Of a stretch of DNA of 18,393 bases, positions 2,102 to 3,732 are shown piece by piece. The notes under the pieces were generated by a model. It was not told the origin of the DNA. It searched no databases and was given only the letters and a program-made list of their open reading frames with translations. Source of the stretch: a virus; UHGV virus genome UHGV-1280364. The stretch is one strand, 5' to 3'. Each line of letters opens with the position of its first letter. Position 1 is the stretch's first letter. Made by a program: the position numbers and the translations under genes.

Positions 2102-2143
2102 GTCAATGTTTGTTCGTTGATATAAAATAACAAGGTATACATT

Positions 2144-2743
2144 GTGATTGAGATAGGCGTTATGGCCATCCTGAATCAAGAGCCAGGAAAAATTGAAAAC
2201 GTTTTTTCTGACATATCAACATCTATCGAGCGTTCAATTTCAGACTTTGATCGCAGTCATAGCGGCTCTTTGTCTAAAAAACAGGCTTCTGAAGCTCTTA
2301 GCAAGATCTACTGCGTTATGTCACCTGTAGAGGAAGTTTGCAAAAAGTACATTACATTCATTGACATATTAAGTAATGGTACGGAAGAAGATATTTCCTC
2401 ACTTGATATTCAACATGACGATGTAGATATGTTGAACGATCAAATATCTAAGCTTGATTATGGTATCGCGAAACTGTTGTATACCTTCTTCATCGCTGAG
2501 AACAGCGATGCGTGGAAGCCCCATATGTCAACTCTTACAACAATGAAAAACCACTCAATAAATACTTTTATAGAATACAAAAGGCTAACTATGGGGCTTG
2601 TGACGCTAGCAATGCAGCACATACCACTATCATATGCTGAACCTGAAGAGTTCACTGAAGAAGAGTTGGCTTCATTCAAGAAATCAGTTGAAGATTCACA
2701 TAAAAGATTTGGCATGGAAGCACCAAAATGGAAAACCGCATAA
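2144..2743 (+). CDS. Hypothetical acidic protein (199 aa), candidate partner or antitoxin of the downstream YafO-like gene
   Basis: Complete ORF 42 nt downstream of mnt in AT-rich DNA. GTG start at 2144 with AAGG upstream; alternative ATG at 2162. Its stop overlaps the start of the next gene (ATGGAAAACCGCATAA). No family recognised. Confidence 0.55.
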   Translation: MIEIGVMAILNQEPGKIENVFSDISTSIERSISDFDRSHSGSLSKKQASEALSKIYCVMSPVEEVCKKYITFIDILSNGTEEDISSLDIQHDDVDMLNDQISKLDYGIAKLLYTFFIAENSDAWKPHMSTLTTMKNHSINTFIEYKRLTMGLVTLAMQHIPLSYAEPEEFTEEELASFKKSVEDSHKRFGMEAPKWKTA

Positions 2744-2820
2744 GCATTGTTGTAGATGCAGCGGCTGGACCATTAGAACAATACTTTGCTTATGCGGTTT
2801 TTCATTGTTGTAAGAGTTGA
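2728..2820 (+). pseudogene. Truncated 5' copy of the YafO-like gene (30 codons, ends in junction sequence)
   Basis: ATG at 2728 encodes MENRISIVVDAAAGPLEQYFA, identical to the first 21 residues of the complete ORF at 2961, then diverges into the junction and terminates at 2820. Confidence 0.6.
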
Positions 2821-2823
2821 CAT

Positions 2824-2976
2824 ATGGGGCTGGTGACGCTAGCAATGCAGCACATACCACTATCATATGCTGAACCTGAAGAGTTCACTGAAGAAGAGTT
2901 GGCTTCATTCAAGAAATCAGTTGAAGATTCACATAAAAGATTTGGCATGGAAGCACCAAAATGGAAAACCGCATAA
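2824..2976 (+). CDS. Duplicated mini-ORF encoding the C-terminal 50 residues of the 199-aa protein (possibly expressed fragment)
   Basis: The second repeat copy starts exactly at an ATG, giving MGLVTLAMQHIPLSYAEPEEFTEEELASFKKSVEDSHKRFGMEAPKWKTA. It keeps the same 16-nt overlap with the downstream gene start as the full-length ORF. No obvious ribosome-binding site, and below the ORF-track length cutoff. Confidence 0.3.
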   Translation: MGLVTLAMQHIPLSYAEPEEFTEEELASFKKSVEDSHKRFGMEAPKWKTA

Positions 2977-3380
2977 GCATTGTTGTAGATGCAGCGGCTG
3001 GACCATTAGAACAATACTTTGCGAAGGCTCTTGCAAACTACAAAAACAGAGGCACCGTTTCAGTTTATCTTGGTAAGATTGGTGGGTTTGAGAGAAACCA
3101 TCACGCCGTCTTATCGGGAATTTACAAGTCGCACATCAGGATCCCTGGAGTAGATGACCCTTGGTTAAAAACAACGCCAATACATCGTAGAGTTAGCGAT
3201 AACTTTTTGATATTTGCGGTACACAACACATATCCAATTCATATCCAGATCATTGCTATCATTAAACCTGATGGTCATGAGAAGGTAAAAAAACTATTGC
3301 CAGCCATCATTGATATAACTGAAAAAAGATTCCAATCTCTAAATGAGAGGGAGCTTAACTCGTTGATTTCATACAAATAA
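2961..3380 (+). CDS. YafO-like toxin candidate (139 aa; putative ribosome-dependent mRNA interferase family)
   Basis: The C-terminal half (NFLIFAVHNTYPIHIQIIAIIKPDGHEKVKKLLPAIIDITEKRF) resembles the E. coli YafO C-terminus as I recall it (...HLVYCQGAFDEQAWLLIAILKPEPHKLARD...KMAEAFRMRF). Start overlaps the stop of the upstream ORF. Based on recalled similarity only, not a search. Confidence 0.5.
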   Translation: MENRISIVVDAAAGPLEQYFAKALANYKNRGTVSVYLGKIGGFERNHHAVLSGIYKSHIRIPGVDDPWLKTTPIHRRVSDNFLIFAVHNTYPIHIQIIAIIKPDGHEKVKKLLPAIIDITEKRFQSLNERELNSLISYK

Positions 3381-3402
3381 AATATCAACTAAGGAGGTTG
3401 GT

Positions 3403-3732
3403 GTGCTTGAATGGTTTCTGTTGTCTGCATTAGTCGTTTCTGGTTTGGTGTATGAGTATCGAATGCACTATCTAACAAAAAAAATAGGAATTCTAGAAAA
3501 CGAATATTGTGCTCTCAAATCCTCACTGGAACGTGAGCAAGGAGACTTAAAAATCTCTCTGTCTAGCATTGAGCGTTCTATAGAGAGCCTAGAGGATAAG
3601 GTTGATCGTATAAAGAATGAGGATATTCATGATATTAAGGACGACATATCCTTCTTAAAATCTTGGTTGAAAAATGTTGGGAAAATTGCCACATCAACAC
3701 GAGATAAGCTCAATCCATCCATGGATGACTAA
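3403..3732 (+). CDS. Small membrane protein (109 aa): N-terminal transmembrane helix plus coiled coil, function unknown
   Basis: AGGAGG at 3392-3397, 5 nt before a GTG start. Hydrophobic N-terminus LEWFLLSALVVSGLVY followed by a heptad-rich charged region. Its stop directly abuts the convergent gp16-like stop (3733). Confidence 0.55.
   Translation: MLEWFLLSALVVSGLVYEYRMHYLTKKIGILENEYCALKSSLEREQGDLKISLSSIERSIESLEDKVDRIKNEDIHDIKDDISFLKSWLKNVGKIATSTRDKLNPSMDD

What the first reader, a model, noticed from the sequence alone, without database searches (positions are those of the whole stretch)
2102..3732. Uncharacterised three-gene plus-strand cluster downstream of mnt, in the slot where P22 carries sieA
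Between mnt and the gp16-like gene lie three co-directional genes with short or overlapping junctions: a 199-aa acidic protein, a 139-aa YafO-like toxin candidate and a 109-aa membrane/coiled-coil protein. They are co-oriented with mnt, which is a lysogen-expressed gene, so they could be expressed in the lysogen from Pmnt. The DNA is visibly AT-richer than the flanking structural genes, consistent with horizontally acquired cargo. In P22 this position holds superinfection-exclusion functions. I could not assign the combination to any described defence or toxin-antitoxin system.
Basis: partly seen in the sequence, partly recalled or inferred. Interest (0 to 1): 0.85.

Follow-up and report, generated by a model that had tools for sequence, protein, structure and literature searches.

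The report
Prophage YafO-type toxin pair plus hkcB
The "three-gene cluster" is really two separate things, a likely toxin-antitoxin pair (a YafO-type RNA-cutting toxin with an undescribed 199-aa partner) and the independent small gene hkcB, all already present unstudied in phage CUS-3, and in this copy the pair is split by a private 233-bp duplication.

Summary
The three ORFs exist at the stated coordinates: A 2144-2743, B 2961-3380 and C 3403-3732. The region has 38% GC against 50% in the virion genes. It lies between mnt and gene 16 of a P22-like prophage, where P22 carries sieA.

It is not one three-gene system.
- **A and B are a conserved, mobile two-gene cassette.** They occur together, usually with overlapping stop and start codons, in E. 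coli, Salmonella, Pectobacterium, Xenorhabdus and several other prophages, with or without C.
- **B is a YafO-family protein.** It scores 44 bits against a Pfam cut-off of 25.
- **A is a rare acidic helical protein.** It has no Pfam, PDB or fold match. Its last ~35 residues switch class exactly when the downstream partner family switches.
- **C is hkcB of HK620.** It always abuts gene 16 and is found without A-B.

My best reading is a type II toxin-antitoxin module, probably lysogen-expressed because it recurs directly downstream of the mnt and cI repressor genes, next to an unrelated moron.

It separates A from B in this window and was found in no other sequence searched.

The locus has been known, unstudied, since CUS-3 (2007). 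This is a new variant of a known kind, of moderate interest.

The parts
1797..1825 (+). Pmnt-like promoter (TTGAGA-17-TATCAT), overlapping the divergent Pant-like promoter at 1830-1802(-)
   Evidence: Consensus scan, 10/12 and 11/12 matches. The arrangement matches P22 immI as described in PMC2629481.
1853..2101 (+). mnt repressor gene (82 aa)
   Evidence: ORF. 85% nucleotide identity to P22 mnt. Annotated as an Arc-family DNA-binding protein in relatives.
2144..2743 (+). Gene A: 199-aa acidic all-helical protein, the proposed antitoxin. Member of phrog_18235, not in Pfam.
   Evidence: Only 18 representatives among 1.84 billion proteins. Invariant motif ERSISDFDRSH at residues 29-39.
2517..2552 (.). 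Left arm of a 36-nt perfect inverted repeat created by the rearrangement (right arm 2796-2831)
   Evidence: the repeat finder I1. RNA fold of 2500-2850 gives -123.8 kcal/mol, z = -9.
2590..2789 (+). Copy 1 of the duplicated 200-bp segment (3' end of A plus the first 62 nt of B)
   Evidence: TRF period 233, 1.9 copies, 99%. The repeat finder D1. One mismatch, at 2599 vs 2832.
2728..2820 (+). B' stub: the first 21 codons of B fused to filler sequence (30 aa, MENRISIVVDAAAGPLEQYFAYAVFHCCKS)
   Evidence: Read from the sequence. The exact product is not in the protein collection.
2790..2822 (+). 33-nt filler. It is the reverse complement of 2525-2552 joined to the reverse complement of 2738-2743.
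   Evidence: Switch points lie at microhomologies TGC, GGTTTT and TATGGGGCT.
2823..3022 (+). Copy 2 of the duplicated segment
   Evidence: Removing 2790-3022 restores the sequence of the relatives.
2824..2976 (+). A' ORF: free-standing copy of the last 50 residues of A (the proposed toxin-binding tail), overlapping the start of B by 16 nt
   Evidence: The exact 50-aa product is annotated as ECTG_01240 in E. coli H305.
2961..3380 (+). Gene B: 139-aa basic YafO-family protein, the proposed ribosome-dependent mRNA endonuclease toxin
   Evidence: Pfam PF13957 at 44.2 bits. phrog_1651. Nine residues are invariant with E. coli YafO across the family alignment.
3355..3383 (+). Weak promoter-like site upstream of C, inside the 3' end of B
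   Evidence: 9/12 consensus match. hkcB stands alone behind a divergent gene in HK620 and MB46, so it needs its own promoter there.
3403..3732 (+). Gene C: hkcB homologue. 109 aa with an N-terminal hydrophobic segment and a coiled coil, a strong SD (AAGGAGG) and a GTG start. An independent moron.
   Evidence: 97% identical to HK620 HkcB. phrog_5962. Distribution.

Best explanation
The region holds two independent units.

**(1) A-B, a bicistronic type II toxin-antitoxin-like cassette.**
- B is a distant member of the YafO family. Like E. coli YafO, it most likely cleaves mRNA on translating ribosomes and so arrests translation. This is inferred from family membership and conserved residues.
- A is its cognate protein antitoxin, from a small undescribed helical family.
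- A is made first and in excess through translational coupling (overlapping stop and start codons).
- A neutralises B through its C-terminal ~35-residue tail. This is inferred because that tail switches class exactly when the partner family switches.
- In this prophage the cassette has no room for a promoter of its own. It is most likely transcribed with mnt from Pmnt in the lysogen (inferred).
- Its role there would be abortive-infection or exclusion-type protection, or simply stabilisation of the prophage.

**(2) C, which is hkcB.** It is an unrelated small gene that always abuts gene 16 and has its own expression signals. Its function is unknown.

In this particular sequence a private 233-bp duplication with an inverted filler has uncoupled A from B. 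It has also inserted a free-standing copy of A's C-terminal 50 codons directly in front of B.
For: **B's family assignment.**
- B matches Pfam YafO_toxin at 44.2 bits against a cut-off of 25.
- RefSeq names it a YafO-family toxin.
- F43, R45, H58, R77, L83, P103, H106, E121 and F124 are invariant across the subfamily and E. coli YafO.
- E. coli YafO is an experimentally shown translation-dependent mRNA interferase, neutralised by an upstream antitoxin (PMC2814082).

**Cassette behaviour.**
- A-B travel as a pair with a 16-nt overlap. They sit at one Pectobacterium chromosomal site, two different Xenorhabdus sites and in Salmonella P22-like prophages without C.
- They also sit in a lambdoid nin region and directly downstream of cI.
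- All 44 E. coli genomes that carry the cassette have the complete 1004 bp at >=99% identity.

**Charge and selection.**
- A has pI 4.9 and B pI 9.6.
- Both are under strong purifying selection.

**Tail and partner co-variation.**
- Class-1 C-tails (SHK..G...P.W-end) are always followed by a YafO_toxin protein.
- Class-2 tails (HP.WV.SGDDFVKWI) are always followed by an unrelated 124-130-aa family.

**Toxin decay with antitoxin kept.**
- In L013 the A homologue is identical to that of L012, but the YafO gene has lost its first ~55 codons.

**Lysogen-expression slots.**
- The module lies downstream of mnt in three phage lineages.
- It lies downstream of an S24 cI-type repressor in two.
- There is no terminator-like site between mnt and C.

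**Independence of C.**
Against: - No experiment exists. Toxicity of B, neutralisation by A and lysogen expression are all inferred.
- B is only 19% identical to E. coli YafO and fails the NCBIfam YafO equivalog model (14 vs 153 bits).
- The AF2 model of B was unusable (pLDDT 40), so the RelE-like fold is not verified.
- A is twice the size of typical antitoxins. It has no recognisable DNA-binding domain and no informative fold match.
- No conserved operator palindrome was found upstream of the stand-alone copies.
- PADLOC models give no defence-system hit.
- The toxin-decay example is a single case.
- The duplication means that in this very sequence the normal A-B coupling is broken, so the module may be misregulated or in decay here.
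Confidence: 0.62

Rival explanations
1. A-B is a two-protein effector or sensor system, not a classic toxin-antitoxin pair. A would be a phage-sensing or activating scaffold that regulates B (and, in class-2 members, a different effector). B would be inert until A releases or activates it on infection.
For: - A is large (199 aa) and helical, with an invariant surface-like motif ERSISDFDRSH that tracks neither partner type nor tail class.
- The same scaffold serves two unrelated partner families.
- The slots are those of RexAB and SieA.
Against: - The gene order, stop/start overlap, acidic/basic charge pair and toxin decay with A retained are all explained more simply by antitoxin function.
- No PADLOC hit.
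- Nothing shows sensing.
Confidence: 0.15
2. The three genes A, B and C form one co-operating three-component system.
For: In CUS-3-type prophages they are adjacent, co-oriented and equally AT-rich, with no terminator-like site between them.
Against: - A-B occur without C in Salmonella, Pectobacterium, Xenorhabdus and other phages.
- C occurs without A-B in HK620 and MB46, preceded there by a divergent gene.
- Full-length C is in 82 E. coli genomes, A-B in 44.
Confidence: 0.04
3. B is a degenerate YafO-like domain that is no longer toxic, and A-B are ordinary phage morons with some other, non-toxic role such as regulating phage or host mRNA.
For: - Low identity to E. coli YafO and failure of the equivalog model.
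- No structural confirmation.
Against: - Residues shared with E. coli YafO are invariant across genera.
- Strong purifying selection.
- Strict pairing with A at many unrelated sites.
- A toxin-inactivating deletion with A kept intact.
Confidence: 0.12
4. The 233-bp duplication is not biological. It would be a chimera from amplification or assembly in the source record, and the true locus would be the ordinary overlapping A-B arrangement.
For: - The junction is absent from 5,426 complete E. coli genomes, IMG/VR, 100,044 GTDB species genomes and JGI metagenomes and from every locus fetched.
- An inverted filler joined at microhomologies is what strand-displacement chimeras look like (my own knowledge).
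Against: - The same signature is produced in vivo by replication template switching.
- Both A and B remain intact.
- The one difference between the copies is a synonymous change next to a switch point.
- The 50-aa ORF is annotated in a public E. coli H305 record.
Confidence: 0.35

Closest known systems
E. coli yafN-yafO type II toxin-antitoxin system (dinB operon)
   Same: - The toxin belongs to the same Pfam family (PF13957), with shared invariant residues.
- The upstream partner gene is tightly juxtaposed to the toxin gene (L024: a 2-nt gap; here and in relatives a 16-nt overlap).
- The expected activity is translation-dependent mRNA cleavage (PMC2814082).
   Different: - The partner is not YafN or Phd-family. 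It is a 199-aa helical protein with no Pfam family and no BLAST similarity to YafN.
- B is only 19% identical to YafO and fails the YafO equivalog model.
- The module is carried on prophages and small islands, not in the SOS dinB operon.
CUS-3 / UTI89 / APEC 'ant moron' genes ECRS218_0007, ECRS218_0008 and hkcB
   Same: Same genes in the same order and position, at 97-99% nucleotide identity. The 'ant moron' of P22-like phages is described as hypervariable in PMC2629481.
   Different: - Those copies have the 16-nt A/B overlap and no 233-bp duplication.
- CUS-3 has two mnt-like genes and a different ant region.
- None of the three genes has been studied.
P22 sieA and lambda rexAB (repressor-linked, lysogen-expressed exclusion genes)
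   Same: Same genomic slots. A-B lie between mnt and gene 16 like sieA, and A-family modules lie directly downstream of cI like rexAB.
   Different: - No sequence similarity to SieA.
- A and B are predicted cytoplasmic.
- The mechanism would be toxin-mediated, not a block of DNA injection.
- A role in exclusion is untested.
Promiscuous antitoxin scaffolds such as PanA/Panacea (recalled from memory: Kurata et al. 2022, not checked here)
   Same: One antitoxin family is paired with unrelated toxin families.
   Different: - Only two partner families were seen here.
- The A family is tiny (18 representatives).
- There is no homology to DUF4065.
- Specificity appears to reside in a swappable C-terminal tail.

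Membership tests
YafO toxin family (Pfam PF13957) | Sequence match to the family model above the curated gathering score | tested here: met
   44.2 bits against a cut-off of 25, E = 2e-11, covering profile positions 2-98 of 101.
YafO proper (NCBIfam NF007377 equivalog of E. coli YafO) | Score above the equivalog cut-off | tested here: not met
   14.2 bits against a cut-off of 153 and 19% identity to E. coli YafO. B is a distant subfamily, not an orthologue.
yafNO-type module | Upstream antitoxin of the YafN/Phd family | tested here: not met
   A has no Pfam hit and no BLASTP alignment to YafN at E <= 100.
Type II toxin-antitoxin system (generic) | Two adjacent co-oriented small genes, with the antitoxin upstream and stop/start overlapping or nearly so, inherited as a mobile pair | tested here: met
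   16-nt overlap in the E. coli, Salmonella, Pectobacterium and Xenorhabdus copies. The pair sits at unrelated chromosomal and prophage sites. In this window the overlap is broken by the duplication.
Type II toxin-antitoxin system (generic) | Toxin inhibits growth, and the antitoxin binds and neutralises it | not testable with these tools
   Indirect support only: the charge pair, tail and partner co-variation, and toxin decay with the antitoxin kept.
Type II toxin-antitoxin system (generic) | Antitoxin carries a DNA-binding domain and autoregulates the operon | tested here: not met
   No HTH, RHH or AbrB domain detected. The fold is a generic helical bundle. No conserved operator palindrome. 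This feature is not universal among antitoxins.
RelE-superfamily ribosome-dependent RNase fold | Predicted or solved structure with the RelE/YoeB-like fold | tested here: inconclusive
   The AF2 model of B has pLDDT 40. No solved YafO structure exists to compare with.
Known anti-phage defence systems (PADLOC-DB v2.0.0) | Match to any component model | tested here: not met
   Only sub-threshold noise: PtuB at E = 0.005 for A, DpdH at E = 0.027 for C, nothing for B.
P22 SieA superinfection-exclusion protein | Sequence similarity to SieA, a polytopic inner-membrane protein | tested here: not met
   BLASTP of A, B and C against P22 SieA gives no hit better than E = 5.
HkcB family (phrog_5962) | Sequence match, and a position abutting the 3' end of gene 16 | tested here: met
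   C is 97% identical to HK620 HkcB. phrog_5962 at E = 6e-60. Same convergent abutment in HK620, MB46 and CUS-3.

The most novel reading that the evidence does not exclude
The A family is an undescribed, modular antitoxin or sensor scaffold.
- Its swappable C-terminal tail would let it control at least two unrelated toxin families: YafO-like, and an unnamed 125-aa family with LPGRNKPSTGVS / WHYHIG motifs.
- Temperate phages would place it repeatedly right behind their maintenance repressors (mnt, cI), so that it is made in the lysogen.
- There it would act as an abortive-infection or exclusion system, a toxin-based functional counterpart of SieA and RexAB.
Probability: 0.25. Interest if true: 0.7.

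Novelty: new variant of a known kind. Interest (0 to 1): 0.42.

Why it matters
**What it would add if confirmed.**
- A new antitoxin family, and probably a new toxin family (the class-2 partner), for the type II toxin-antitoxin catalogue.
- An explanation for the 'orphan' YafO toxins noted in prophages. These are reported for Pectobacterium (PMC6192338), and for E. coli only 8% of YafO partners are known (PMC10790755).
- A candidate function for a variable slot in the P22-like prophages of K1/ExPEC/APEC E. coli (CUS-3, UTI89). That slot holds superinfection exclusion in P22.

**What is directly testable.** The recurrence of the module immediately behind the mnt and cI repressor genes supports lysogen-expressed protection, and that can be tested.

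**What limits the interest.** The toxin family is known. The locus has been in GenBank since 2007. The cassette is rare, in 0.8% of complete E. coli genomes.

Tried and rejected
- **Structure of B.** The model has pLDDT 40 and is unusable.
- **PDB sequence searches** with A, B and E. coli YafO returned nothing meaningful.
- **Class-2 partner versus the YafO-like alignment.** Profile-profile comparison gave probability 0.1%. My by-eye impression of a shared G.RN...H.H motif is therefore not supported and was dropped.
- **Similarity of C to the other small hydrophobic coiled-coil ORF (1338-1607).** None found.
- **Operator palindromes upstream of stand-alone cassettes.** None convincing.
- **Accession and locus-tag search of the literature.** No papers.
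- **Truncated-A cluster P0015.** No contig on record, so it could not be tested whether B is intact when A is truncated.
- **The 50-aa A' product as a tracer of the duplication.** The nine short contigs returned carry it only because A is fragmented or frameshifted there, not because of the duplication.
- **The mir-454 Rfam hit at 2713-2815.** It scores 25 bits against a cut-off of 60 and is an artefact of the hairpin made by the rearrangement.
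Full report
**Setting**

The window is the late and immunity-I end of a P22-like (Lederbergvirus) prophage, reversed relative to the P22 map. From left to right it carries these features.
- ant at 340-1341(-).
- An 89-aa ORF at 1338-1607(-).
- arc at about 1604-1765(-).
- Overlapping divergent Pant-like and Pmnt-like promoters at 1830-1802(-) and 1797-1825(+).
- The sar antisense RNA at 1276-1343 (Rfam RF00262, 90 bits).
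- mnt at 1853-2101(+).
- The three ORFs of the finding.
- The ejection-protein and virion genes, on the minus strand from 3733 onward.

The nearest relatives are phage CUS-3 and the CUS-3-type prophages of K1/ExPEC/APEC E. coli, including UTI89, RS218, APEC O18 and APEC E19035. P22 carries ORF59a and sieA between mnt and gene 16. The positional statement in the finding is therefore correct.

**Observation check**

- A is at 2144-2743 and encodes 199 aa with pI 4.9.
- B is at 2961-3380 and encodes 139 aa with pI 9.6.
- C is at 3403-3732 and encodes 109 aa. It has a GTG start behind an AAGGAGG Shine-Dalgarno sequence.

The region has 38.4% GC, against 49.9% for 3733-end.

A and B are real genes. 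Between the E. coli, Salmonella and Pectobacterium copies, synonymous sites are saturated (pS 0.80-0.94), while non-synonymous differences stay at 0.14-0.21.

- A 200-bp segment (2590-2789) is repeated at 2823-3022, with one mismatch between the copies.
- The two copies are separated by a 33-nt filler.
- The filler is the reverse complement of 2525-2552 joined to the reverse complement of 2738-2743.
- The three joints lie at microhomologies TGC, GGTTTT and TATGGGGCT.
- Deleting 2790-3022 restores exactly the sequence of the relatives. In the close relatives (E. coli, Salmonella, Pectobacterium and Xenorhabdus copies) the stop codon of A overlaps the start codon of B by 16 nt (ATGGAAAACCGCATAA).

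The rearrangement has four consequences.
- Both A and B stay intact.
- It creates a 30-aa B' stub at 2728-2820.
- It creates a free-standing ORF for the last 50 residues of A at 2824-2976, which now overlaps the start of B.
- It creates a 36-bp perfect inverted repeat (2517-2552 / 2796-2831) that dominates the predicted mRNA fold (-123.8 kcal/mol, z = -9).

The junction was not found anywhere else I could search.
- 5,426 complete E. coli genomes.
- IMG/VR.
- 100,044 GTDB species genomes.
- JGI metagenomes.
- All fetched loci.

The exact 50-aa product is annotated as ECTG_01240 in E. coli H305, which is probably the source of the window. Sequence alone cannot say whether the duplication is a real template-switch mutation or an amplification or assembly chimera.

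**The cluster is two units, not one**

The A family is tiny. I found 16 clusters at 90% identity among 5.8 billion proteins. A profile search found 18 representatives among 1.84 billion proteins. Every full-length member whose neighbourhood could be read is followed by a small co-oriented gene that overlaps it or lies within 5 nt of it. The sites are listed below.
- Pectobacterium chromosome, between an ABC-transporter operon and gcvP.
- Two different Xenorhabdus chromosomal sites.
- Salmonella P22-like prophages with the order mnt-A-B-gene 16 and no C.
- A locus beside pirA-like and phage-sheath genes.
- A lambdoid nin region.
- Directly downstream of, and co-oriented with, an S24 cI-type repressor. 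This is the position of rexAB in lambda.
- Inside a baseplate gene cluster.
- Downstream of mnt in a phage with a different tail type.

In E. coli the 1,004-bp A-B cassette occurs in 44 of 5,426 complete genomes. In every one it is complete and at least 99% identical.

C behaves differently.
- It is 97% identical to HkcB of HK620.
- It is full-length in 82 E. coli genomes.
- It always abuts the 3' end of gene 16 convergently, whatever lies upstream. That is hkcC in HK620, a P63C-domain gene in strain MB46, and A-B in the CUS-3 type.
- In HK620 and MB46 a divergent gene precedes it, so it must have its own promoter there. A weak promoter-like site lies at 3355-3383 in the window.

**What A-B is**

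B matches Pfam YafO_toxin above the curated threshold (44.2 vs 25 bits). RefSeq names it a YafO-family toxin. It is not an orthologue of E. coli YafO. Identity is 19%, and it fails the NCBIfam equivalog model (14 vs 153 bits). Nine residues are nonetheless invariant across the subfamily and E. coli YafO: F43, R45, H58, R77, L83, P103, H106, E121 and F124. E. coli YafO is an experimentally established translation-dependent mRNA interferase, neutralised by the upstream YafN (PMC2814082).

A has no Pfam, NCBIfam or PADLOC family and no similarity to YafN. Its AF2 model (pLDDT 77) is an all-helical bundle that matches only generic helical proteins.

The most informative feature of A is its modularity. 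Homologues fall into two C-terminal classes.
- **Class 1** ends in ...SHK..G...P.W. In every case examined it is followed by a YafO_toxin protein.
- **Class 2** ends in ...HP.WV.SGDDFVKWI. In every case examined it is followed by a different 124-130-aa family (phrog_5954; motifs LPGRNKPSTGVS, WHYHIG, FGDWTS). That family has no Pfam hit and no profile similarity to the YafO-like set.

This perfect association between tail class and partner family is what one expects if the tail is the partner-binding, neutralising element. One natural case also fits toxin-antitoxin logic. On contig L013 the A homologue is identical to that of L012, but the YafO gene has lost its first ~55 codons through a deletion between short repeats.

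**Mechanism proposed**

What the data show:
- gene order;
- stop/start overlap;
- the charge pair;
- family membership of B;
- co-inheritance and mobility of the pair;
- co-variation of tail class and partner family.

What I infer:
- B cleaves mRNA on the ribosome.
- A binds B through its C-terminal tail and neutralises it.
- A is made in excess through translational coupling.
- In this prophage the pair is transcribed with mnt from Pmnt in the lysogen.

The expression inference rests on three points: the mnt-A gap is 42 nt, there is no terminator-like site up to 3732, and the mnt-then-A order is conserved in three phage lineages.

The biological role is open between abortive infection or exclusion and plain addiction or stabilisation of the prophage. 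Recurrence at repressor-linked slots (mnt and cI) leans towards a lysogen-expressed function. However, no PADLOC model matches, and the available literature contains no experiment on these genes.

**Comparison with what is known**

- The locus is ECRS218_0007/0008/hkcB of CUS-3.
- The 'ant moron' was described as the most variable part of P22-like late regions, with the CUS-3/UTI-1/APEC-1 type holding six genes of mostly unknown function (PMC2629481).
- Large surveys had noted that YafO toxins pair with Phd or with unidentified partners (PMC3141249).
- In E. coli only 8% of YafO partner clusters are known antitoxins (PMC10790755).
- Prophage YafO genes in Pectobacterium lack YafN (PMC6192338).

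The work here adds four things: the identity and properties of that partner family, its two-partner modularity, its preferred slots, and the separation of hkcB from the pair.

**Verdict**

A-B is a new variant of a known kind: a YafO-family type II toxin-antitoxin-like module with an undescribed antitoxin family. It lies beside an independent moron, hkcB. Interest is moderate (0.42). The toxin family is known and the locus has long been public and is rare. The partner family, its tail swapping and its repressor-adjacent placement are testable and not described in the literature I could search.

Noticed in passing
window 2517-3022: A private 233-bp duplication with a 33-nt inverted filler, joined at three microhomologies. 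It creates a 36-bp perfect inverted repeat, a 30-aa B' stub and a free-standing 50-aa copy of A's C-terminus. It is absent from every other sequence searched.
   Followed up: yes
window 1338-1607 (-): An 89-aa ORF between arc and ant, with a strongly hydrophobic N-terminal segment (KD 2.79) and a coiled coil. It belongs to phrog_27312, is annotated as hypothetical in relatives, and is unrelated to C. P22 has no gene there.
   Followed up: partly
window 1276-1343 (+): sar antisense RNA of the immI region (Rfam RF00262, 90 bits against a cut-off of 43), followed by a terminator-like hairpin at 1308-1339. The immI circuitry appears complete.
   Followed up: partly
L006:2065-2457, L011:889-1266, L026:4534-4908, L027:4042-4422: An unnamed 124-130-aa family (phrog_5954; motifs LPGRNKPSTGVS, WHYHIG, FGDWTS). 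It is always immediately downstream of class-2 A homologues, has no Pfam hit and is a candidate new toxin family.
   Followed up: partly
L016:2785-5058 and L027:2489-4422: In two unrelated lambdoid prophages, an A-family gene plus its partner sits directly downstream of, and co-oriented with, the S24 cI-type repressor. This is the position of rexAB in lambda.
   Followed up: partly
L013:632-1479 vs L012:4001-5009: The A homologue is identical on both contigs, but in L013 the YafO gene has a ~165-nt 5' deletion between GGTATATGG and GGAATATGG repeats. The toxin has decayed while the antitoxin is kept.
   Followed up: yes
window 2228-2260 (A residues 29-39): The motif ERSISDFDRSH is invariant in close class-1 proteins and conserved with substitutions in most class-2 A proteins, which share only ~27-32% identity overall with window A. 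It is missing from distant class-1 members and degenerate in two class-2 members (P0034, P0036). Its function is unknown.
   Followed up: no
window 3730-3735: The stop codons of hkcB (+) and the gp16-like gene (-) abut with no intergenic base and no terminator-like hairpin. Late-operon transcription towards the tailspike would therefore run antisense through C, B and A.
   Followed up: no
cluster 2: The 90%-identity protein cluster that contains A (199 aa) also lists YafO-family B proteins (139 aa) as members. This is presumably a clustering artefact of the collection.
   Followed up: no
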